From: a virus
DNA: 34,562 nucleotides
Virus record (IMG/VR): IMGVR_UViG_3300045988_048182
Location: 1 to 34,562 of that record
Direction: 5' to 3' (one strand)
Part shown: positions 2,076 through 31,356 of the stretch, piece by piece
Layout of the letters: each line of letters opens with the position of its first letter
Numbering within the stretch: the stretch's first letter is position 1
Translations under genes and position numbers: made by a program
Notes under the pieces: generated by a model
Databases searched by the model: none
The model's input: only the letters and a program-made list of their open reading frames with translations
Told to the model about the DNA's origin: nothing

Positions 2076-2365
2076 TACATTTCTCCCGTGATCATCAGCA
2101 TTTGGCTGGTGATTTTTTTTATACCTTGTTTGAGTTTTGTGTTTTCCTCTTCAAGTTCTTCACATCGTTTCAATAATTTGCGGTAGTTAAACGCGTTACA
2201 CTCGTTCTCTATGCCCGCCACATTTTGAATTTCTTGTACTGAAAACAATACACCTGGTAATTTCTCTATGGCGTGAATAACGCCATTATTCCTAAGGTTA
2301 TACACCGAAGATTTTGAAATGCCTAACACTTCAGCTACTTCATCAACGGTGTATGTTAATTTCAT
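2075..2365 (-). CDS. Excisionase/MerR-type HTH DNA-binding protein with a C-terminal coiled coil
   Basis: The N-terminus LTYTVDEVAEVLGISKSSVYNLRNNGVI is a classic HTH_17/excisionase-family helix-turn-helix. It is the second gene of the early leftward operon. Confidence 0.6.
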   Translation of the reverse strand: MKLTYTVDEVAEVLGISKSSVYNLRNNGVIHAIEKLPGVLFSVQEIQNVAGIENECNAFNYRKLLKRCEELEEENTKLKQGIKKITSQMLMITGEM

Positions 2366-2571
2366 TTCGTATCTCCTTTCATCAATTCAGATAACCCACA
2401 CTTGAAATAGTGTGCCACCTTTACCAGGCTGCTAACGCTAGGCGATTGCTCACCACTTCGCCACCTAGAAATAACGCTTTCCGATATTCCCGTTTCTTTA
2501 GATAGCTTATAAGCGCTAACACCCTTGTTATCCATCAAGCGAAAAATATTCTTCGAAACAGTTTTAATCAT
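2362..2571 (-). CDS. Cro-like XRE-family HTH regulator
   Basis: 69 aa. VSAYKLSKETGISESVISRWRSGEQSPS is an XRE HTH. The gene is divergent from the CI-like gene across an operator-bearing intergenic region. Confidence 0.8.
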   Translation of the reverse strand: MIKTVSKNIFRLMDNKGVSAYKLSKETGISESVISRWRSGEQSPSVSSLVKVAHYFKCGLSELMKGDTK

Positions 2572-2591
2572 TTACACCACCTTTTCTATTT

Positions 2592-2620
2592 GATATACTT
2601 GCGTTATAGCAAGTAATAAA
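2592..2620 (-). promoter_or_regulatory. Candidate early lytic promoter (-35 TTTATT, 17-nt spacer, -10 TATATC) with operator O1 filling the spacer
   Basis: The minus strand reads TTTATT-ACTTGCTATAACGCAAG-TATATC. The layout matches the promoter at 25735-25763, with the operator in the spacer and its last T being the first T of the -10. Confidence 0.45.
2597..2614. promoter_or_regulatory. Operator O1: ACTTGCGTTATAGCAAGT
   Basis: 18-bp inverted repeat with one mismatch to the palindrome ACTTGCG-N4-CGCAAGT. Confidence 0.7.
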
Positions 2621-2665
2621 TATTTCACCTTTCATACCTGCTATAACACGATTGTTTATAAGATT

Positions 2666-2683
2666 GCTTGCGTTTTCGCAACT
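2666..2683. promoter_or_regulatory. Operator O2: GCTTGCGTTTTCGCAACT
   Basis: Same 7-N4-7 palindrome with mismatches at the two outer positions. It overlaps a candidate cI-side -35 (TTCGCA 2675-2680, 18-nt spacer, TATAGT 2699-2704). Confidence 0.65.
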
Positions 2684-2701
2684 ACCTTATGGCTTAATTA
2701 T

Positions 2702-2719
2702 AGTTGCGTTTCCGCAAGT
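2702..2719. promoter_or_regulatory. Operator O3: AGTTGCGTTTCCGCAAGT
   Basis: Same palindrome with one mismatch. Its centre is 36 bp from the O2 centre. Confidence 0.65.
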
Positions 2720-2780
2720 AGTCTAGTAAACTTTTCGTAAATTATCATAAATAATCGTTTATAATTTGCGGAGGTTAAAC

Positions 2781-3125
2781 ATGTTTTACCAAAGGTTCAG
2801 TGATGCCATGCAAAAAACAGGCGTTTCTATGTATCAAGTTTCAAAGGATACAGGCATAGCACAAAGTACTATTTCACGTTGGAAAACTCAAAACTCAACG
2901 CCTAGTTTAAAGACTGTTAAAATTTTGGCTGAGTATTTCAACGTGCCAACCTCTTATTTTACGGAAGGCGTAGCGGGAACGCCTGAGATTAAACCAACCG
3001 AAAGAAAAGTTGATTTAAAACAATTAAGTGATAGCACTTTAATTTGTTATTATGGTGATCGTAAACTGACTACTTCGCAAAAAGCGAAATTATCAAAGGT
3101 GTTGAAAGCTGTATTAGAAGATTAA
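2781..3125 (+). CDS. CI-like XRE-family repressor
   Basis: GGAGG at 2770-2774 precedes ATG 2781 (the ORF track starts at an upstream TTG). HTH is VSMYQVSKDTGIAQSTISRWKTQNSTPS. An ImmA-type protease gene follows. Confidence 0.8.
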   Translation: MFYQRFSDAMQKTGVSMYQVSKDTGIAQSTISRWKTQNSTPSLKTVKILAEYFNVPTSYFTEGVAGTPEIKPTERKVDLKQLSDSTLICYYGDRKLTTSQKAKLSKVLKAVLED

Positions 3126-3149
3126 TAATATTCAAGGGGAATTGTTAGC

Positions 3150-3509
3150 ATGTTCAATATGTGTTCTTTTGTCTTAGATTTAATTAAGTCGCACGGCTCA
3201 AATGAACCGCGCAGCATTGCAAGCAAGTTAAACATTAAAGTATTTTATAAACGTATGCCCGTAGGTGTTAGTGGTGTACTGATTAAACCGGAGATTAAAA
3301 AGGCTATTATTATAAATAGCCGGTTAAGTAGGCGCCAGCAGCGCGAAGCACTTGCGCATGAATTAGGGCATGCATTGCTTCATGGTGAATACGATTTATA
3401 CGGCGGCTTAGATAGCACCACACGCGCAAAACTTGAAATAGATGCGAATACTTTTGCGCATTTATTGTTAAATAAAGGGGTTCAACATGAAAAAGAAAGA
3501 TGCAATTAA
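3150..3509 (+). CDS. ImmA/IrrE-family zinc metallopeptidase (likely repressor-cleaving anti-repressor)
   Basis: Carries the HEXXH motif in the context ALAHELGHALLH. The gene is small and sits immediately downstream of an XRE repressor, as in ImmR/ImmA pairs. Confidence 0.8.
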   Translation: MFNMCSFVLDLIKSHGSNEPRSIASKLNIKVFYKRMPVGVSGVLIKPEIKKAIIINSRLSRRQQREALAHELGHALLHGEYDLYGGLDSTTRAKLEIDANTFAHLLLNKGVQHEKERCN

Positions 3510-4717: not shown

Positions 4718-4938
4718 TAGTTTTTGCCGTTTTTATGCCGTTTTAGAGAAAAACGCATTAAAAAACATGGTTTTACTCATATATTTAACAATACTTTATT
4801 ATAGCGTATTTAATAATTTTTATCTATAATATCGCACATCGTAGTTTTTAATTGATTGGCCATAACGTAAATTTAAAATTCTAACCACAAAATTATATAG
4901 CTTTACATGAAATTTTTGACGTATTTTTGCCGTCAAAT
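4718..4938. other. Putative attP region (AT-rich, with repeated TTTTNTGCCGT motifs)
   Basis: Non-coding, AT-rich stretch directly downstream of int. TTTTTGCCGT occurs at 4721-4730, TTTTATGCCGT at 4731-4741 and TTTTTGCCGT at 4924-4933. The core site cannot be defined without a host sequence. Confidence 0.4.
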
Positions 4939-4975
4939 AAAAAAGAGGGGTACCGCTTATGGTACCCCTTTATTA
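4939..4975. terminator. Bidirectional rho-independent terminator
   Basis: 11-bp stem AAGAGGGGTACC / GGTACCCCTTT (4944-4954 with 4961-4971). An A-run flanks it on the left and TTTATT on the right. It lies between convergent plus- and minus-strand genes. Confidence 0.75.
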
Positions 4976-5137
4976 CTAATCTAATTCAACAAGACGTTTT
5001 AATTCGCCATTTACAAACCACATTTCACAACGTACATTGTTATGGTCTGTTAAAGTTGCGGTGTATAAACCGTCTTTCTTTGGTTCTACTTCTTCTGCGA
5101 ACATATGCGTTTTGCCTTCAAATGTAAATGTTTTCAT
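4976..5137 (-). CDS. Small hypothetical protein (53 aa), not in the ORF track
   Basis: ATG 5135-5137 with AAAGGG upstream. Translation is MKTFTFEGKTHMFAEEVEPKKDGLYTATLTDHNNVRCEMWFVNGELKRLVELD. The terminator follows immediately. Confidence 0.45.
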   Translation of the reverse strand: MKTFTFEGKTHMFAEEVEPKKDGLYTATLTDHNNVRCEMWFVNGELKRLVELD

Positions 5138-5207
5138 ATCATATACCCTTTCATTAAATGAATTATAGTTTACCGTAAACCGTACGGCGCGGAGATAATC
5201 GGATCAC

Positions 5208-23770: not shown

Positions 23771-25128
23771 ACACCCCATGCGCTTATATCTCCTTCGCTA
23801 TCATCAACATATTTATAACCGTCATTAAATGGCTTTTCTGGTTTAACCGATTTTACTGGCCGTGCCATACACATATAACGCACCGCATCATACGCATGAT
23901 CTTCTTGTTTCGTGTCTACGTCCTCAACTTTTATTTTGTCATAAGTTAAAGCTGGCAATGTACGTATTAGGTGTACGCAATTACTGAATATCTTTAACTT
24001 ACCTTCTTTTAATCGTTGATGTACTTGCATCAATCCGGCCAATCTATCATTATCAGCACGCACCCAGTACACGCCTTCCGTTGCAAATATTTCCGCAATC
24101 GTTGGCCCGTCATGCCCTGTACGTTGCCATATAGCGGGGTCTGCTACGCCTTGATAGTCTTTCAAGTGTTCTATCTTTTGCGCTACTTCTCGCGCCGTTT
24201 CCTGTGTTCCTGTATCAGGCATGCCCGGCTTGCAACCGTAATACTCACCTGTGATATATAACACATCGTCATAATCAATCGCGTAGGAATATACTGCATA
24301 TGGTTTTGTATATCCCCAGTCCATTGAACGATATCGTTGCCAATGATGCGGAACTTCAAACGGTTCTATTACATGCTTCTCCGTTCTAAATTCCGTAAAT
24401 ACTTGACCTTCGAATATGTTCCAGTCGCCTTCTAAGTATGCTTTACGTAGTTTTTCGGGTAGCGTATTAAGTGCATCTATATAATTCTGTGATAGATGCG
24501 GGTTATCACTTGCCCTTGCTTGAATATATGCAATCTTATCGGCGAACGGTTGCATTTCTTTTGTAAAATTTCTATCAATGAATAAATCTTTAACCCACAT
24601 ATGGCCTTTACCGCCTGGATTAGTTGCCGCGATTAACTTAGTATCACTTATACCAACCCAGCGTAGACGCATACGCAAGAAGTCGAACACGTCGCGACTA
24701 TTCAAGGTTAATTCATCAATAGCAATAGCAGCGAATTCGCTTGATAAATATTTACTTGGGTTATCTAAGTTACGAAAACAGATAACGCCGCCACCTAATT
24801 CATTATTTAATGTGAATTCATGGTTACTTTCTTTATAGCTTCCCAGCCATTCGGGAAATTCCATTTTTATTTTAGAGATTTGACGATCATCTAAACTGGG
24901 GTAATCTTCACAAAACAACCCTACGCGTATTCCTTTAATTCCTGTTTGAATGAACCAGTCAATTAAAAGCCATACTAAACCCCAGCGGAGTATATACGAT
25001 TTACCACCACCAGCAGCGCCGCCATATAGCGTATATATATTTTGCTTTACCGCGCGCAAGAATTCTTTCTGCTTAGGCGTTGGCCGTATCACATCGCGAA
25101 ACAGATTTGTTTTACTCATCTGTATCAC
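23767..25128 (-). CDS. terL: Terminase large subunit
   Basis: Walker A in the context LYGGAAGGGKSY, a Walker B-like AIDELT and a C-terminal nuclease-type region. 453 aa. Confidence 0.9.
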   Translation of the reverse strand: MIQMSKTNLFRDVIRPTPKQKEFLRAVKQNIYTLYGGAAGGGKSYILRWGLVWLLIDWFIQTGIKGIRVGLFCEDYPSLDDRQISKIKMEFPEWLGSYKESNHEFTLNNELGGGVICFRNLDNPSKYLSSEFAAIAIDELTLNSRDVFDFLRMRLRWVGISDTKLIAATNPGGKGHMWVKDLFIDRNFTKEMQPFADKIAYIQARASDNPHLSQNYIDALNTLPEKLRKAYLEGDWNIFEGQVFTEFRTEKHVIEPFEVPHHWQRYRSMDWGYTKPYAVYSYAIDYDDVLYITGEYYGCKPGMPDTGTQETAREVAQKIEHLKDYQGVADPAIWQRTGHDGPTIAEIFATEGVYWVRADNDRLAGLMQVHQRLKEGKLKIFSNCVHLIRTLPALTYDKIKVEDVDTKQEDHAYDAVRYMCMARPVKSVKPEKPFNDGYKYVDDSEGDISAWGV

Positions 25129-25483
25129 TCAATTCATCATTATCAATAACCAACTTAACAGCACTTTCTGTTGTAATTTCCTGTTGTATCTTATCGCGCC
25201 ATTCTTTAGACTTGCGATTTTTAAGCCAAAATATAATTGCGGTAGTGTTTCCCCTTAACGCTTCTTTATAAAGTGCATTTTCAACTTGTAAATCTGCTTC
25301 ATCTTTTCCTATTTTTAGGGCGTTCGATATTTCCGGTGATTTCTTACGCCATTCCCATAAGGTGGAAACGGCAATACCCATATTAGATGCAATTTGTTCA
25401 TTTGTTAGGCCGTTACGCGCCCAACCTTTTAGCAGTAAAATCTTTTCTTCTGCTTCCCAATCCGTATATGTTGTTTTTGCCAT
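25112..25483 (-). CDS. terS: Terminase small subunit
   Basis: An N-terminal HTH (LTNEQIASNMGIAVSTLWEWRKK) is followed by ENALYKEALRGNTTAIIFWLKNRKSKEWRDK, which is typical of Firmicutes-phage TerS proteins. Confidence 0.75.
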   Translation of the reverse strand: MAKTTYTDWEAEEKILLLKGWARNGLTNEQIASNMGIAVSTLWEWRKKSPEISNALKIGKDEADLQVENALYKEALRGNTTAIIFWLKNRKSKEWRDKIQQEITTESAVKLVIDNDELSDTDE

Positions 25484-25495
25484 TGTTTCACCCCC

Positions 25496-25684
25496 TTATT
25501 TCAGAATGTTATTATCTTTTGCTTTCATGCGCCCATGTGATCGCGCACATATGCCGGCTACTTGCTTGGCTGCGTGTTTGCTAGTGCAATATGTTTGGCA
25601 TAAACCGTCATAATATATTTCGCTGGCCGTGCATTGGCCCTTCTTATTGTTAAGGCATTTTGACTTTGTACATATGATATTCAC
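25496..25684 (-). CDS. Cys-rich small protein (DUF1540-like pattern)
   Basis: GTG start 25682-25684 with GGTGGTGA upstream. The pattern IICTKSKCLNNKKGQCTASEIYYDGLC resembles the C-x-x-x-C...C-x-A-x-x-I signature. Confidence 0.45.
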   Translation of the reverse strand: MNIICTKSKCLNNKKGQCTASEIYYDGLCQTYCTSKHAAKQVAGICARSHGRMKAKDNNILK

Positions 25685-25734
25685 TAGCTTTTCACCACCT
25701 TTACAAACTTTTTTGAAAAAATTTTAATTTTCCT

Positions 25735-25763
25735 ATTGACTACTTGCGAAAACGCAAGTATAA
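25735..25763 (+). promoter_or_regulatory. Near-consensus sigma-70-type promoter (TTGACT, 17-nt spacer, TATAAT) with operator O4 in the spacer
   Basis: TTGACT at 25735-25740 and TATAAT at 25758-25763. The spacer is occupied by ACTTGCGAAAACGCAAGT. Confidence 0.75.
25741..25758. promoter_or_regulatory. Operator O4: perfect palindrome ACTTGCGAAAACGCAAGT
   Basis: Same 7-N4-7 motif as O1-O3 in the immunity region and the only perfect copy. On the minus strand its TTCGCA, an 18-nt spacer and TAAAAT (25749 down to 25720) form a possible back-to-back promoter towards the packaging operon. Confidence 0.7.
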
Positions 25764-25816
25764 TGAAGCCATAAGATACATCGGAAAACGCAATTAAGCG
25801 AAAAGGAGAAATTAAA

Positions 25817-25972
25817 ATGCTAACACTTAAAGACTTAAACACAACTCAAACATGGAACTTTGAAAACAAAACAGATGCTTCCGATTTCATTAGTACAATG
25901 AGTTTCGGTTTTGAATGGCAATTAATCGACAATAACACAAACGAAGTTATTGCTTGCCACTACTTCGAATAG
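25817..25972 (+). CDS. Small acidic hypothetical protein (51 aa), not in the ORF track
   Basis: AAGGAG at 25803-25808 lies 8 nt before the ATG. Translation is MLTLKDLNTTQTWNFENKTDASDFISTMSFGFEWQLIDNNTNEVIACHYFE, with 8 acidic and 2 basic residues. Confidence 0.6.
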   Translation: MLTLKDLNTTQTWNFENKTDASDFISTMSFGFEWQLIDNNTNEVIACHYFE

Positions 25973-26032
25973 CAAATAAAGGCGGTAGATAACCACTACC
26001 GCCAACTATTTAAACCAAAGGAGAATACAACA

Positions 26033-26350
26033 ATGCAAATGACTATTCAAGAAATTAAAAACGCGATCAAATACAACGAACTAAACAATATCGAAACATT
26101 ACAAGCCGCATATACCGGCGTTAAATACAACAATGACGGCATAATTCAAACACTAGGTTATGACGATTTAAGCAACATTGTTATGATGCTTCGTTATCTA
26201 GCTGAAAAATGCGAGTTACTACGCCGCCGTACTAACTCAATATATGATGCGTTCGCTGCATTTAACCTACGCGAAACAATATTCGATACTATAGACGAAT
26301 ATCAGAAAGAAATGAATAACCAAATACGCCAAATGTTAGCCGCTAGATAA
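26033..26350 (+). CDS. Hypothetical protein (105 aa), second gene of the plus-strand island
   Basis: AAAGGAG lies upstream of the ATG and a terminator follows the gene. The composition looks helical. No motif recognised. Confidence 0.6.
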   Translation: MQMTIQEIKNAIKYNELNNIETLQAAYTGVKYNNDGIIQTLGYDDLSNIVMMLRYLAEKCELLRRRTNSIYDAFAAFNLRETIFDTIDEYQKEMNNQIRQMLAAR

Positions 26351-26363
26351 TAGCGGCTTTTTT
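26338..26363 (+). terminator. Rho-independent terminator of the island
   Basis: AGCCGCTA-GATAA-TAGCGGCT followed by TTTTT. The stop codon lies in the loop. Confidence 0.8.
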
Positions 26364-26464
26364 AATTACTCAAAACCAAACACGGGGCAAACGTTCCATA
26401 ACTAGTATCAAACAGATGCAGCGCGTTCAGTTTTCAATAATCAAATGTTACTTTTATACAAGAA

Positions 26465-26508
26465 ATGGGGTATATCGTCGCGGATACACCCCATTTTATT
26501 TTTGTTTT
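26465..26508. terminator. Second strong hairpin terminator (plus orientation has a long T-tract; minus orientation also plausible)
   Basis: 12-bp stem ATGGGGTATATC / GATACACCCCAT (26465-26476 with 26483-26494). It has one A-C mismatch that becomes a G-U pair on the minus strand. On the plus strand TTTTATTTTTGTTTTATT follows; on the minus strand TTCTTGTAT follows. Confidence 0.65.
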
Positions 26509-26521
26509 ATTCTATTTTATT

Positions 26522-26679
26522 GCATATTCTAAACAAATACCGATAGTTCTCATGCGCTCTTATGAAACTTTTGAAACGATACAAGTATTCAACCACGAAA
26601 AAACAAATGAAATTTAACAACAGCAAAATTATTTATAGTATGAAGGTTTTCACTATATCGGTATTTGTTTACAGTATGC
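26522..26679. repeat. Long-range inverted repeat (24 of 26 positions) enclosing a 104-nt loop
   Basis: The left arm GCATATTCTAAACAAATACCGATAGT (26522-26547) pairs with the right arm ACTATATCGGTATTTGTTTACAGTATGC (26652-26679). Confidence 0.8.
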
Positions 26680-26681
26680 AA

Positions 26682-26706
26682 TTGCGGGGCGTTGTGTACC
26701 CCGCAA
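26682..26706. other. GC-rich hairpin TTGCGGGG-N9-CCCCGCAA
   Basis: 8-bp perfect stem read directly from the sequence, with no adjacent T-tract. Confidence 0.6.
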
Positions 26707-26766
26707 CTACTAACCTGTTTACCTAAGGAGAGAATGCAAATGCTCAACTAGCACTTTACACCTTAT

Positions 26767-26831
26767 ATTATACTATATATGGCGTTTCCACCTATTTCCG
26801 ATATAGTCCGATATAGTCCGAATTATACCGA
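26767..26831 (-). promoter_or_regulatory. Candidate activator-dependent late promoter: four tandem 10-bp repeats upstream of a TATAAT, with no -35
   Basis: The minus strand reads TCGGTATAAT, TCGGACTATA, TCGGACTATA, TCGGAAATAG (plus-strand 26792-26831), then 19 nt, then TATAAT (26767-26772). The last repeat overlaps the stop codon of the DUF1492-like gene. Confidence 0.45.
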
Positions 26832-27296
26832 TTTAGCAGTATACATACACGCATAATATGTATGGTGCAAATAATAGCCAACTTGTACAAGGCCGGCCGT
26901 TTTTATTTCTGCCGCTTGCGACTTTTCCAAATCTGTAAAGTATCGCGCATGCTTCGCGCTTTTGCCGTCGATGTATTCGCGTAGCAATAAAATATTTGCT
27001 TTCCCTGTGGTGCATGTGTTGATGATATCCGCTGCGGTTTCCCGCTCATCAATTAATGCGCCTATTTCTTTGTGTACTGCATCGCGTTTGCTTTCAAGGC
27101 GTATAATCTGTTGTTCCAATCCGCCAGGTGTTCCGCCACCTGTTAGGTGTTCTTTGGAATAATCAACGGCGCCTATTGTTGTAATATCTGATTGTAAATG
27201 CTTTAGATCTTCCTTCAATGAGTTAATTTTCATTGTGATTAACTTGATAGGCTCTAAATATTCTTTTGCTATTTCCCTGTACTCTTTATCAGTCAT
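26823..27296 (-). CDS. DUF1492-like putative late-gene transcriptional regulator (sigma region-4-like family)
   Basis: The architecture is YL...KINSLKEDLKHLQS...LTGGGTPGG...IIRLESKRDAVHKEIGALIDERETAADIIN...LLLREY. This resembles DUF1492 proteins encoded just before the packaging genes in Firmicutes phages. Confidence 0.45.
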   Translation of the reverse strand: MTDKEYREIAKEYLEPIKLITMKINSLKEDLKHLQSDITTIGAVDYSKEHLTGGGTPGGLEQQIIRLESKRDAVHKEIGALIDERETAADIINTCTTGKANILLLREYIDGKSAKHARYFTDLEKSQAAEIKTAGLVQVGYYLHHTYYACMYTAKSV

Positions 27297-29938: not shown

Positions 29939-30702
29939 TTACTGCCATTTAATATATTGATCGCATCGCTTCAAAATATCTTTCACTAACTCCAACGGGA
30001 TACTTGACCTTACGTTATACCTATTAACACCAGTTATATTTAGCTTATTGAATTTAATAGTGTTCTTTATATCATCTTTCAATAATTTCAAATTGATATT
30101 ACTACCAAACTTGGTGGGTTTCTTGATTGGATAATCATAGTTGTTGTAATATGTTAGGTTTTCATAAGGAATATTAAACCCTATCACATTGGCTATGTAT
30201 TCCCATATCCGCCCATATGCTGGGTTTTCAATCACAAATACTTTAGGTTGGTAACGCTCAATGATTTTTAACGTGTTATAGATACACATCTCACCATTGA
30301 TGCGTGTTAGGAATGACTTGTCATACTTGAATTGGTAGTTTTCATAATCAATGTGATTTCTGATTGTGAATTTACTTCCTTGTTCGTACTCACCGAATAG
30401 GTTTATAGTCATATCCTTTTCTTGTTTCCAGCACGCATTACCACCTTTCATCGCACTTGCTACACTCCAACTTTCACACGGCGGACTAGCTAATATCACA
30501 TCAGGTTTATCTAGTTTGTCTAATTGCTCCCATAGTGCGTTAGGCTGATGTAATGTATTAATCGCTAAGTCTTGATTGATGCACGCATCACCAATTCCTA
30601 TTGATGTTATTGTGTGTTGCCCCCCCCCGTATTCATGTTATATTCATCTACCGCTTGACGATAACAGCCGTTGCCGTCGTCAAATAACCCCCATATATGC
30701 AT
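29939..30702 (-). pseudogene. C5-cytosine-type DNA methyltransferase interrupted by a G9 homopolymer (OFF frame in this assembly)
   Basis: ATG 30700-30702 with GGAAGGTG upstream. A 32-codon N-terminal frame ends at TAA 30607-30609. The downstream 186-aa frame carries ASPPCESWS (PPC motif) and FVIENPAYG (ENx motif). C9 on the plus strand is at 30620-30628. A G10 (or G7) tract gives a single 254-aa ORF. Confidence 0.65.
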
Positions 30703-30712
30703 TTTCACCTTC

Positions 30713-30895
30713 CTAATATTTACCTTTACTCCGCTTGATGCGGTTGTTATTTGTCTTGATATACCCGTGCACACAATGCCGGATATTACGGGTTTCTAAT
30801 TCTTCTTTTCGGCTCAAACTGTATTTTATATAGGCCGCGCATGTACTATGGCAGCCTATCGCCCTAAACTTACAACCTTTGCATGGTGCTTTCAT
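30713..30895 (-). CDS. Cys-rich small basic protein (60 aa), possible zinc-binding
   Basis: Contains CKGCKFRAIGCHSTC plus later Cys and His residues. The start is coupled to the upstream gene. Confidence 0.45.
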   Translation of the reverse strand: MKAPCKGCKFRAIGCHSTCAAYIKYSLSRKEELETRNIRHCVHGYIKTNNNRIKRSKGKY

Positions 30896-31356
30896 TTCCT
30901 GTTTCCACCTTTAAAAAATACCAACCAAATTGTTTTTCCGCGCCGTTGGCCTAAAATCGGTTTATCTGGCAATAACTGGCGTACTTTTGGCAAGGTTACT
31001 TGTTCTTCATTCCATTTAAAAATTAACGTTCCGTTTTGTTTGAGTACCCGCCAACATTCCGCAAGGCCCTGTTTTATATCCTTTTTCCAGTCTGGCCCTA
31101 ATTTCCCGTATTTCAGTTTTAGAAATGACGTATTGCCAGCGCTCACCAGATGTGGCGGATCAAAAACAACCAAATAAAATGTTTCGTTTTCAAAAGGCAT
31201 TTTTCTAAAATCTGCAACTATATCCGGTTTTACAATTAACTTCCTACCGTCGCATAGTGTTGTATTTTCCATTCGGTTATCCATGTAAACTGTTTCTTTA
31301 TGTTCTCTATCAAACCAAAACATTTTGGAACCACAACACGCATCTAATATCTTCAT
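30892..31356 (-). CDS. SAM-dependent DNA (amino) methyltransferase, intact
   Basis: Motif I-like ILDACCGS and motif IV-like VVFDPPHL (DPPH). 154 aa. Confidence 0.65.
   Translation of the reverse strand: MKILDACCGSKMFWFDREHKETVYMDNRMENTTLCDGRKLIVKPDIVADFRKMPFENETFYLVVFDPPHLVSAGNTSFLKLKYGKLGPDWKKDIKQGLAECWRVLKQNGTLIFKWNEEQVTLPKVRQLLPDKPILGQRRGKTIWLVFFKGGNRK

What the first reader, a model, noticed from the sequence alone, without database searches (positions are those of the whole stretch)
25817..26363. Orphan two-gene island on the opposite strand, wedged between the late regulator and the packaging genes
Outside the lysogeny module, 25817-25972 (51 aa, missed by the ORF track) and 26033-26350 (105 aa) are the only plus-strand genes.

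Both have strong Shine-Dalgarno sequences and a near-consensus operator-controlled promoter. Their own terminator is at 26338-26363, with a second hairpin terminator 100 bp further on. A hairpin (GGCGGTAG-N7-CTACCGCC, about 25980-26002) lies between the two genes.

The 51-aa product is strongly acidic (8 Asp/Glu against 2 Lys). Neither protein has a motif I recognise.

Small, promoter-proximal, repressor-gated genes that are convergent with their neighbours are the typical context of anti-defence genes (Acr-like, anti-restriction) or host-takeover genes. Their transcription would also collide with any minus-strand late transcript coming from the 26.8-kb region. The function is pure inference. 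The gene structure is seen directly.
Basis: partly seen in the sequence, partly recalled or inferred. Interest (0 to 1): 0.68.

Follow-up and report, generated by a model that had tools for sequence, protein, structure and literature searches.

The report
Repressor-gated early gene cassette in phage
A Veillonella temperate phage carries a small removable cassette, driven by a copy of the phage's own early promoter and operator, that encodes two conserved proteins with no known relatives; it sits backwards inside the leader of the packaging operon and is best read as an early accessory (possibly anti-defence) module.

Summary
Both plus-strand genes are real: conserved in more than 100 related phage contigs, dN/dS about 0.2, confident AlphaFold models.

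New here:
- The island (about 25703-26360) is a discrete cassette. It is missing from 14 of 122 syntenic relatives and its cargo is shuffled in the others.
- Its promoter is a 57-bp copy of the phage's early lytic promoter P_R, with a perfect 20-bp palindromic operator. That operator occurs three more times, only in the immunity region.
- The operator type tracks the immunity type across phages.
- A sister cassette carries its own promoter and its own small HTH gene (32 of 32).
- The single late promoter lies upstream, at about 26.77 kb on the minus strand. Late transcripts must therefore cross the island antisense to reach terS.

Function is unresolved. No hit in Pfam, PHROGs, NCBIfam, PADLOC, PDB or BFVD, and the p105 family is confined to this phage lineage. 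The two genes also occur separately, so they are not an obligate pair.

Best reading: an early-expressed cassette, silent in the lysogen, whose small and mostly acidic products probably act on the host (anti-defence or takeover). The architecture is well supported. The function is inferred.

The parts
25703..26360 (+). The island as a discrete insertion module (promoter, two genes, terminator). It is flanked by 8-bp direct repeats TTTTAATT at 25722-25729 and 26360-26367.
   Evidence: Relatives with an empty slot join ...CACCACCTTT directly to TTTAATTACTCAAAACC (L135, L133, L145, L081). L088 looks like a deletion between the two TTTTAATT repeats. L150 keeps only a terminator remnant. GC is 34.4% against 39.4% for the window.
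25736..25764 (+). Island promoter: -35 TTGACT (25736-25741), 17-nt spacer, -10 TATAAT (25759-25764).
   Evidence: 11 of 12 consensus. Conserved in 76 related loci. Positions 25738-25794 align with the P_R region 2723->2667 (38 nt at 92%, E = 9e-10; extended alignment).
25741..25760 (.). Operator: a perfect 8+4+8 palindrome, TACTTGCG AAAA CGCAAGTA, filling the promoter spacer.
   Evidence: The half-sites are conserved while the central 4 nt vary (AAAA, TATT, AATA) across relatives.
25783..25794 (.). Half-operator remnant GAAAACGCAATT in the 5' UTR. It corresponds to the right half of the immunity-region operator at 2666-2683.
   Evidence: Alignment of the island promoter with P_R. Conserved in type-1 loci.
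25817..25972 (+). p51: a 51-aa acidic protein (pI 4.2) with a beta-beta-alpha-beta-beta fold. It is usually the first gene of the cassette.
   Evidence: The only informative BFVD match is its own orthologue. No PDB match.
25981..26003 (.). Conserved intergenic hairpin: invariant stem, variable loop. It matches the position of the bidirectional terminator that ends p51-only cassettes. On the minus strand it is followed by UUUAUUUGCU.
26033..26350 (+). p105: a 105-aa all-helical protein (4 helices, long C-terminal helical hairpin). It is usually the last gene of the cassette.
   Evidence: A profile search of 1.84 billion representatives finds only 2 full-length clusters. No PDB match by fold or sequence.
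26338..26363 (+). Intrinsic terminator of the island (8-bp stem, 5-nt loop, T6). The stop codon of p105 lies in the loop.
2597..2719 (.). Immunity-region operators at 2597-2614, 2666-2683 and 2702-2719. They share the island operator's palindrome with 1-2 mismatches. The last one fills the spacer of P_R.
2697..2725 (-). P_R-type early lytic promoter (TAGACT-17-TATAAT) driving the cro-like gene. This is the source, or paralogue, of the island promoter.
2362..2571 (-). Cro-like 69-aa HTH protein.
   Evidence: Its HTH is 41-43% identical to that of the repressor (tblastn cross-hits).
2781..3125 (+). CI/ImmR-like repressor: HTH_3 and Phage_CI_repr matches, 114 aa, no peptidase domain.
3150..3509 (+). 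ImmA/IrrE-like Zn-metalloprotease (Peptidase_M78, HEXXH motif), the presumed anti-repressor protease.
26767..26836 (-). Late promoter: -10 TATAAT (26772->26767) with no -35, preceded by direct repeats TCCGATATAG x2-4 (26797-26836) that overlap the stop of the late-regulator gene.
   Evidence: The -10 box is nearly invariant (one listed variant reads TAGAAT). The repeat sequence changes with the late-regulator allele: CCGATATAG, CCGATT or TGACATTTA (with lateR identities). It is the only such array in the window.
26364..26766 (-). Structured leader of the late operon, about 400 nt. It is conserved whether or not the island is present. The island is inserted at its 3' end.
25496..25684 (-). o62: a Cys-rich 62-aa protein and first gene of the late operon. 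Its SD is about 20 nt from the island's left boundary.
   Evidence: (phrog_33034).
25112..25483 (-). Small terminase subunit.
   Evidence: phrog_309, E = 1e-44.
26823..27296 (-). Late regulator (157 aa).
   Evidence: phrog_36, transcriptional regulator, E = 5e-12. Its allele co-varies with the repeats downstream of it.

Best explanation
The island is an autonomous accessory cassette of about 660 bp (promoter, cargo genes, terminator). It is inserted in antisense orientation at the 3' end of the leader of the single late (packaging and structural) operon of an uncultured Veillonella temperate phage.

Its promoter is a slightly stronger copy of the phage's early lytic promoter P_R. A perfect copy of the repressor operator fills the spacer between the -35 and -10 boxes.

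Shown: the anatomy, the presence/absence polymorphism of the cassette, the homology of the promoter to P_R, the match between operator type and immunity type across phages, and purifying selection on both genes.

Inferred, step 1: in the lysogen the ImmR-like repressor occupies the operator and keeps the cassette silent.

Inferred, step 2: when the repressor is removed, presumably by the adjacent ImmA-like protease, or on infection of a naive cell, the cassette fires together with P_R. It gives a pulse of p51 and p105.

Inferred, step 3: the Cro-like protein, which has a paralogous HTH, later shuts the promoter. This clears the way for late transcripts that start at about 26.76 kb and must run antisense through the cassette to reach terS.

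Inferred, with less support: p51 and p105 are independent small host-directed effectors, most likely anti-defence or host takeover. They are not parts of the phage's core machinery.

My confidence is about 0.85 for the architecture and regulatory logic and about 0.35 for the anti-defence or takeover function. The single figure given below (0.55) is for the whole statement.
For: Genes are real:
- Conserved homologues.
- dN/dS 0.17-0.21.
- AF2 pLDDT 87 and 91.

The island is a cassette:
- 14 of 122 syntenic slots carry no recognisable island promoter. 13 of these are empty, with clean junctions; the fourteenth (L037) keeps p51+p105 behind a promoter deletion.
- The island is flanked by TTTTAATT repeats and has low GC.
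- Cargo is shuffled among at least 9 families.

Promoter and operator:
- 11 of 12 consensus promoter.
- 20-bp perfect palindrome.
- 4 operator sites in the window against 0.15 expected; the other three lie between the divergent cro-like and repressor genes.
- A 38-57-bp alignment to P_R, repeated in L075, L080 and L101.

Co-variation with immunity type:
- Type-1 island promoters go with type-1 operators in the immunity region in 21 of 21 phages. Type-2 islands do so in 1 of 6 (Fisher p = 7e-5).
- Type-2 promoters always come with an island-encoded 58-62-aa HTH gene (32 of 32, against 0 of 76 for type 1). That gene occurs nowhere else in these phages.

Late promoter position:
- A near-invariant -10 box, plus repeats that co-vary with the late-regulator allele.
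- It is the only such array in the window.
- The leader runs straight into o62 and terS in empty-slot phages.

Accessory, host-directed character:
- No family match in Pfam, PHROGs, NCBIfam, PADLOC or PDB, and in BFVD (p51 only) nothing beyond p51's own uncharacterised orthologue.
- The lineage is narrow.
- 8 of 10 cargo proteins have pI 4.2-5.1.
- Regulated bursts from a promoter carrying inverted repeats, under a small HTH regulator, are how acr-aca anti-defence operons work (PMC13551039, abstract).
Against: There are no expression data of any kind. Repression by the repressor and shut-off by the Cro-like protein rest on operator position only.

No protein in the slot resembles a known anti-defence protein. 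Small acidic proteins of unknown function are common in phages whatever their role.

No dedicated anti-defence HMM library (dbAPIS, AcrDB) was available.

One phage (L151) pairs a type-2 island with a type-1-like immunity region, so the match between cassette and immunity type is not absolute.

The scan also finds a weak minus-strand promoter-like site (TTCGCA-18-TAAAAT, 25750->25721) inside the island's left end. It could drive o62 and terS independently of the upstream late promoter. If so, late transcripts would not need to cross the cassette.
Confidence: 0.55

Rival explanations
1. The cassette's main role is regulatory. A strong convergent promoter, controlled by the repressor and the Cro-like protein, sits inside the late leader. 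It acts as a transcriptional-interference or antisense gate that blocks premature packaging-gene expression until the Cro-like protein shuts it. The encoded proteins are secondary.
For: The island lies between the only late promoter and o62/terS, in antisense orientation. Its promoter is stronger than P_R and carries the best operator in the genome. The minus-strand terminator-like hairpin at 25981-26003 would add to the block. Unregulated acr promoters are reported to harm phage fitness (PMC13551039, abstract).
Against: 14 of 122 related slots have no island promoter, 13 of them empty, yet they keep the same leader and late genes. A gate is therefore dispensable. Both ORFs are under purifying selection, and the cargo, not just the promoter, is conserved and exchanged. 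L037 has lost the promoter but keeps the genes.
Confidence: 0.12
2. A classical moron: genes expressed from the prophage that benefit the lysogen, for example superinfection exclusion or another lysogenic-conversion trait.
For: It has its own promoter and terminator, low GC, and is present or absent among otherwise syntenic phages. These are the defining features of morons (established usage; e.g. PMC2629481 discusses morons in P22-like phages).
Against: The promoter spacer is filled by a perfect copy of the operator that controls the lytic promoter P_R. That predicts silence in the lysogen. Neither protein shows an obvious signal peptide or hydrophobic membrane segment (my reading of the sequences and the soluble AF2 folds; no predictor was run), which is unlike most exclusion proteins.
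Confidence: 0.1
3. Accessory parts of the lysis-lysogeny switch. For example, an antirepressor or an activator of the ImmA-like protease that gives positive feedback once derepression starts, comparable to P22 Ant or 186 Tum, which are encoded far from the immunity region.
For: The repressor lacks a self-cleavage domain and is paired with an ImmA-like protease, so some extra input to induction is plausible. The cassette is wired to the same operator. Small antirepressors encoded away from the immunity region are known (P22 immI, 186 tum, Gifsy phages; my own knowledge).
Against: p51 and p105 are each dispensable and interchangeable with unrelated cargo. Phages with the same immunity type carry different cargo or none. 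Type-2 cassettes carry the same p51 and p105 families in phages whose repressor is only about 34% identical.
Confidence: 0.08
4. A two-gene toxin-antitoxin or abortive-infection pair.
For: Two small adjacent genes in one operon, the first of them acidic. The type-2 variant includes an HTH with weak similarity to the HTH domains of MqsA/HipB-type antitoxins (below the curated cut-offs).
Against: The genes are not an obligate pair: p105 occurs alone in 14 loci and p51 alone in 12. There are no hits to PADLOC or to toxin or antitoxin families. p51 has no DNA-binding motif. The promoter is predicted to be off in the lysogen.
Confidence: 0.04

Closest known systems
acr-aca (anti-CRISPR / anti-defence) operons of phages and other mobile elements
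   Same: A strong promoter with inverted repeats in or near the core promoter. One to several small, fast-evolving, often acidic proteins of unknown family. Cargo shuffled between relatives. A need to shut the promoter down after an early burst. The sister (type-2) cassette carries a small HTH gene that always travels with its own promoter, like an Aca, and has a hairpin in its 5' UTR (PMC13551039).
   Different: The window's cassette has no HTH gene. It borrows the phage's own repressor/Cro operator by duplicating P_R. No protein matches a known Acr or Aca. The cassette is antisense to the operon it sits in. Activity against CRISPR or any other defence is untested.
Morons of lambdoid phages (autonomous promoter-gene-terminator units, e.g. 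between P_R'/tR' and the late genes)
   Same: An autonomous transcription unit, low GC, present or absent between syntenic genomes. It is inserted just downstream of the late promoter and leader terminator, a position that tolerates insertions.
   Different: Morons are typically expressed from the repressed prophage. This one is predicted to be repressed in the lysogen and expressed early in lytic growth. It also lies on the opposite strand.
Lambda-type early operons under CI/Cro control (P_L/O_L as a second operator-controlled promoter)
   Same: A second promoter in the genome carrying the same operator as P_R, with the operator overlapping the core promoter. It is predicted to be derepressed at the same time as P_R.
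   Different: It is about 11 kb from the immunity region in the prophage map. It is a single operator plus a half-site rather than a tripartite operator. It drives only a dispensable two-gene cassette, and it is evidently a recent duplication of P_R.
P22 immI region (ant, arc, mnt)
   Same: A small, separately regulated transcription unit placed among late genes, far from the main immunity region, with its own operator-controlled promoter.
   Different: immI has dedicated regulators (Mnt, Arc) and a known antirepressor function. Here the regulator is the main repressor (type 1) or an island-encoded HTH (type 2), and the function is unknown.

Membership tests
Operator-controlled early promoter of the phage's own immunity system (P_R/P_L type) | Carries the same operator sequence as the immunity region | tested here: met
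   Perfect palindrome at 25741-25760. Three copies with 1-2 mismatches at 2597, 2666 and 2702. 4 sites against 0.15 expected.
Operator-controlled early promoter of the phage's own immunity system (P_R/P_L type) | Operator overlaps the core promoter, so a bound repressor excludes RNA polymerase | tested here: met
   The operator fills the 17-nt spacer between TTGACT and TATAAT. P_R has the same layout.
Operator-controlled early promoter of the phage's own immunity system (P_R/P_L type) | Operator type follows repressor type across related phages | tested here: met
   21 of 21 type-1 islands sit in phages with type-1 immunity operators, against 1 of 6 type-2 islands. The sequences are related, so the p-value overstates independence.
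Operator-controlled early promoter of the phage's own immunity system (P_R/P_L type) | Repressor binding, and repression in the lysogen | not testable with these tools
   Needs EMSA, reporter assays or RNA-seq.
Moron (autonomous accessory transcription unit in a phage operon) | Own promoter and own terminator flanking the cargo | tested here: met
Moron (autonomous accessory transcription unit in a phage operon) | Present or absent between otherwise syntenic genomes; atypical base composition | tested here: met
   14 of 122 slots carry no island promoter, 13 of them empty with clean junctions. GC 34.4% against 39.4%.
Moron (autonomous accessory transcription unit in a phage operon) | Expressed from the repressed prophage | tested here: inconclusive
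   The sequence predicts the opposite, since the operator sits in the promoter spacer. No expression data are available.
acr-aca anti-defence operon | Small cargo genes followed by, or interleaved with, an HTH (or RHH) aca regulator gene | tested here: not met
   The window's island has no HTH gene. The sister type-2 cassette does (HTH_3, E = 5e-6; 32 of 32).
acr-aca anti-defence operon | Inverted repeats in the operon promoter that serve as the regulator's binding site | tested here: met
   Here the predicted binder is the phage repressor or the Cro-like protein rather than an Aca.
acr-aca anti-defence operon | Sequence or structural similarity of the cargo to known Acr or anti-defence proteins | tested here: inconclusive
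   No hits in Pfam, PHROGs, NCBIfam or PDB by fold and by sequence, and none for p51 in BFVD. No dedicated Acr or anti-defence library was available.
acr-aca anti-defence operon | Inhibition of a host defence system | not testable with these tools
   Needs plating or transformation assays in Veillonella strains that carry defence systems.
Type II toxin-antitoxin pair | The two genes are an obligate, co-inherited pair | tested here: not met
   p105 occurs alone in 14 loci and p51 alone in 12, and both occur with other partners.
Type II toxin-antitoxin pair | Similarity to known toxin or antitoxin folds or families | tested here: not met

The most novel reading that the evidence does not exclude
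The slot between the late leader and terS is an anti-defence hot spot of Veillonella temperate phages. On this reading p51, p105 and the other cargo families (c64, c65, c111/c105b, c106, c95, c54) are new inhibitors of host defence systems such as restriction-modification or CRISPR-Cas. The phages would have evolved two interchangeable ways to give them an early, self-limiting burst: copying P_R with its operator, or carrying a private Aca-like HTH. The antisense position in the late leader would make shut-off of the cassette a precondition for packaging-gene expression.
Probability: 0.3. Interest if true: 0.65.

Novelty: new variant of a known kind. Interest (0 to 1): 0.5.

Why it matters
Veillonella is an abundant oral and gut commensal, and its phages are almost uncharacterised. 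The large terminase here is at most 37% identical to that of any deposited phage.

The cassette gives a well-delimited, experimentally tractable set of about nine small protein families. They are predicted to be made in the first minutes of lytic growth, and the slot can be used as a guilt-by-association anchor for finding more.

It also shows a simple evolutionary route to early, lysogen-silent expression of accessory genes: duplicate the phage's own P_R and operator. A natural comparison, the version with a private HTH, sits in the same slot.

The antisense placement inside the leader of the only late operon makes a testable prediction: cassette shut-off and late-gene timing should be coupled.

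Tried and rejected
Searches that found nothing:
- GenBank phage records. No DNA match for 25400-26900 and no tblastn match for p51, p105, c111, c65, c64 or the late regulator.
- Family libraries. Pfam, PHROGs, NCBIfam and PADLOC give nothing for p51, p105 or any cargo except the HTH gene. The p51 hit to phrog_10805 (E = 0.012) covers 23 residues of a family of unknown function and I ignored it.
- Structure. Foldseek against PDB gives no hit with E below 0.1 for either model; the top hits are generic helical repeats and designed proteins. Foldseek against BFVD for p51 finds only its own orthologue and other uncharacterised small phage proteins. Profile searches against PDB sequences found nothing.
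- Exhaustive profile search with p105. The family is confined to this lineage.
- Rfam, over the whole window at gathering score and over 25600-26900 at E up to 1: only noise. No tRNA genes.

Ideas rejected:
- Type-2 island promoters are also copies of their phage's P_R. No similarity to the immunity region in L109, L122, L134, L137 or L141.
- The island-encoded HTH is a captured cro or cI. It occurs only in the slot.
- A second late-regulator binding site lies just upstream of o62. The single TTCCGATGTATC-like unit at 25779-25790 is not conserved at its key positions, and the tandem array is unique in the window.
- The 50-aa plus-strand ORF at 26465-26617 downstream of the island is a gene. 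It starts inside the leader hairpin, and the region shows RNA-type covariation on the minus strand.

Technical failures: two regex attempts to delimit the leader failed and were redone. One Pfam call and one promoter scan were rejected for wrong coordinates or length.
Full report
WHAT IS THERE

The window is a complete or near-complete temperate phage of about 34.5 kb. Almost all genes are on the minus strand. The plus strand carries a lysogeny module at 2.8-4.7 kb: an HTH repressor, an ImmA/IrrE-type metalloprotease and an integrase.

At 25.8-26.4 kb, two plus-strand ORFs lie between the late regulator and the packaging genes. The late regulator is at 26823-27296 (phrog_36). The packaging genes are a Cys-rich 62-aa ORF, small terminase phrog_309 and the large terminase.

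The only genome-collection hit for p105 is a prophage in a Veillonella parvula MAG. More than 100 related contigs exist in IMG/VR. No deposited phage is close: the large terminase is at most 37% identical.

CHECK OF THE OBSERVATION

- both ORFs and their AGGAG ribosome-binding sites;
- the TTGACT-17-TATAAT promoter;
- a palindrome in the promoter spacer;
- the terminator at 26338-26363;
- the hairpin at 25981-26003;
- a second strong hairpin near 26.47 kb;
- the acidity of the 51-aa product.

The genes are not chance ORFs:
- 37 and 24 homologous protein clusters were found.
- dN/dS is 0.17-0.21 across 40-44 distinct alleles.
- AlphaFold models are confident. p105 (pLDDT 87) has four helices. 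p51 (pLDDT 91) has a beta-beta-alpha-beta-beta fold.

Two details need correction. The intergenic hairpin has a U-rich tail only on the minus strand. The second hairpin is part of a conserved leader that is also present in phages without the island.

THE ISLAND IS A CASSETTE IN A VARIABLE SLOT

I compared the interval between the 62-aa ORF and the late regulator in 122 related loci. The plus-strand unit always begins about 133 nt from the start of the 62-aa ORF, but its content varies:

| Content of the slot | Loci |
|---|---|
| p51 + p105 (as in the window) | 39 |
| p105 alone | 14 |
| p51 alone | 12 |
| p51 + HTH + p105 | 23 |
| Empty | 13 |

Further combinations involve at least six other small families (c64, c65, c111/c105b, c106, c95, c54).

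Empty slots join ...CACCACCTTT directly to TTTAATTACTCAAAACC. That delimits the island as about 25703-26360, flanked by TTTTAATT repeats. L088 looks like a deletion between those repeats, and L150 retains only a terminator. Island GC is 34.4% against 39.4% for the window.

p51 and p105 each occur without the other. They are therefore independent cargo, not a two-component system.

THE PROMOTER IS A COPY OF P_R

- The palindrome ACTTGCG-N4-CGCAAGT occurs four times in the window at up to 2 mismatches, against 0.15 expected.
- It occurs once, perfectly, in the island promoter spacer. The other three copies (2597, 2666, 2702) lie between the divergent cro-like gene (2362-2571) and repressor gene (2781-3125).
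- The copy at 2702-2719 fills the spacer of a minus-strand promoter, TAGACT-17-TATAAT, that reads towards the cro-like gene. I call this promoter P_R.
- Positions 25738-25794 of the island align with 2723->2667. The alignment covers the -35 remnant, operator, -10 box, initial transcribed region and the right half of the next operator: 38 nt at 92% (E = 9e-10), about 57 nt in the extended alignment.
- The same relationship holds in L075, L080 and L101.
- Across relatives the half-sites are fixed while the central four bases vary, as expected for a dimer-binding operator.

So "repressor-gated" is not just plausible. The island uses the phage's own lytic-promoter logic, with a better -35 box and the best operator in the genome.

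CO-VARIATION WITH IMMUNITY TYPE, AND A SECOND REGULATORY SOLUTION

I fetched 80 loci that span both the island and the immunity region.
- Type-1 island promoters sit in phages with type-1 operators and repressor/Cro proteins related to those of the window in 21 of 21 cases.
- Islands with a different promoter (type 2: ACGGTTGACGyGTC...ACCGTGTTATACT) sit in phages with a repressor only about 34% identical and no type-1 operators in 5 of 6 cases. L151 is a mosaic exception.
- Type-2 promoters show no similarity to their phage's immunity region.
- Type-2 promoters always come with an island-encoded 58-62-aa HTH_3 protein: 32 of 32, against 0 of 76 for type 1. That protein occurs nowhere else in these genomes.

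The same cargo families are therefore delivered under two interchangeable control systems: the phage repressor, or a private HTH. The latter is the layout of acr-aca operons, where an early burst must be shut down to protect phage fitness (PMC13551039, abstract).

WHERE LATE TRANSCRIPTION STARTS, AND WHY ORIENTATION MATTERS

Immediately downstream of the late-regulator gene, on the minus strand, lies a near-invariant TAGTATAAT with no -35 box (-10 at 26772->26767). It is preceded by tandem direct repeats at 26797-26836.

The repeat sequence changes with the allele of the late regulator. It is CCGATATAG with regulators 77-99% identical to the window's, CCGATT with about 62% identity, and TGACATTTA with 29-36% identity. 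The array is unique in the window.

This is most simply the single late promoter, activated by the adjacent regulator. That is an inference.

In empty-slot phages its roughly 400-nt leader runs straight into the 62-aa ORF and terS. In the window, the late transcript must therefore traverse the island antisense. On the way it passes the minus-strand terminator-like hairpin at 25981-26003.

The leader itself contains a conserved terminator-like hairpin followed by a U-run on the minus strand (26463-26496). Late transcription in this phage group probably has to read through terminators anyway. That would explain why a cassette with hairpins is tolerated here.

One caveat: a weak promoter-like site on the minus strand inside the island's left end (25750->25721) could offer an alternative start for terS.

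FUNCTION OF THE PROTEINS

Nothing known matches:
- Pfam, PHROGs, NCBIfam and PADLOC gave no credible hit.
- PDB gave none by fold or by sequence.
- BFVD returns only p51's own orthologue and other uncharacterised small phage proteins.
- An exhaustive profile search finds the p105 family only in this lineage.

What can be said:
- The products are dispensable and exchangeable.
- They are predicted to be made early and not in the lysogen.
- Eight of ten cargo proteins have pI 4.2-5.1.
- One variant carries an Aca-like regulator.

These are the hallmarks of anti-defence or host-takeover loci, but they are circumstantial. I put about 0.35 on that function and about 0.85 on the cassette and regulatory architecture.

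RIVALS

- Gate or timer as the primary function: weakened by the 13 empty slots and by selection on the proteins.
- Lysogen-expressed moron: contradicted by the operator position.
- Switch accessory or antirepressor: the cargo does not track immunity type and is dispensable.
- Toxin-antitoxin: the genes occur separately.

COMPARISON WITH KNOWN SYSTEMS, AND NOVELTY

The cassette works like a moron in its anatomy, like a P_L-type early operon in its control, and like an acr-aca operon in its cargo style and need for shut-off.

It is not a demonstrated member of the acr-aca class. The window's cassette has no aca gene, no cargo resembles a known Acr, and no activity has been shown.

I rate it a new variant of a known kind. 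It is an early, repressor-gated accessory cassette built by duplicating P_R and inserted antisense in the leader of the only late operon, with new protein families.

Interest is moderate (0.5). The architecture is neat and testable, and the slot is a useful hunting ground in an understudied host. The central functional claim is still inference.

Noticed in passing
window 26364-26766, minus strand: A conserved, structured leader RNA of about 400 nt for the late operon. A 26-bp long-range helix (26520-26546 with 26655-26681) has 10 pairs with compensatory double changes, and its G.U pairs are legal only on the minus strand. Other elements are a 5' hairpin (26682-26706), a terminator-like hairpin plus U-run (26463-26496), and a 3' helix UUGAAAACUGAAC/GUGUUYGGUUUUGAG (26426-26438 with 26369-26383). 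There is no Rfam match. It may be a new cis-regulatory element (antitermination, or packaging-related) and may be more novel than the island.
   Followed up: partly
window 26767-26836, minus strand: The late promoter has a near-invariant -10 box, no -35 box, and tandem 10-bp repeats. The repeat sequence switches with the allele of the adjacent late regulator (CCGATATAG, CCGATT or TGACATTTA). This is a natural specificity-swap series for an uncharacterised regulator family (phrog_36; no Pfam, NCBIfam or PDB match).
   Followed up: partly
window 2362-3509: The immunity module is of the ImmR/ImmA type. A 114-aa HTH repressor without a peptidase domain is followed by a 119-aa Peptidase_M78 (HEXXH) protein. 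A divergent cro-like gene and three operators complete it. Induction is therefore probably by proteolysis through the ImmA-like protein rather than by RecA-stimulated self-cleavage (ImmR/ImmA tandem, PMC8960796).
   Followed up: partly
L003:5490-6320 and 31 other loci (e.g. L109, L134, L138, L139): The type-2 version of the cassette has its own promoter (ACGGT-N15-ACCGT around a TTGACG -35 box), an upstream palindrome ATTACAC-N5-GTGTAAT, a GGGG-N6-CCCC hairpin in the 5' UTR, and a private 58-62-aa HTH gene. L151 combines a type-2 cassette with a type-1-like immunity region.
   Followed up: partly
L037, L088, L150 (slot region): Natural decay or rearrangement variants. L037 has lost the -35 box, operator and -10 box but keeps p51+p105. 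L088 has lost the cassette between the TTTTAATT repeats. L150 keeps only a terminator hairpin.
   Followed up: no
window 25496-25684, minus strand: A Cys-rich 62-aa ORF (phrog_33034, function unknown) lies directly upstream of terS and is conserved in essentially all relatives. It starts with GTG after a GGTGGTG ribosome-binding site. It may be a zinc-binding packaging accessory.
   Followed up: no
window 29939-31356, minus strand: Two ORFs match different DNA methyltransferase PHROGs (phrog_2882 and phrog_954). Both match only the C-terminal part of the profile, and an ORF-poor gap of about 390 bp separates them (30500-30891). They may be truncated or frameshifted genes, or may use unusual starts.
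   Followed up: no
window 4718-5207: The interval between the integrase and the last late gene, presumably holding attP, contains a 53-aa minus-strand ORF (4976-5137) with no family match.
   Followed up: no
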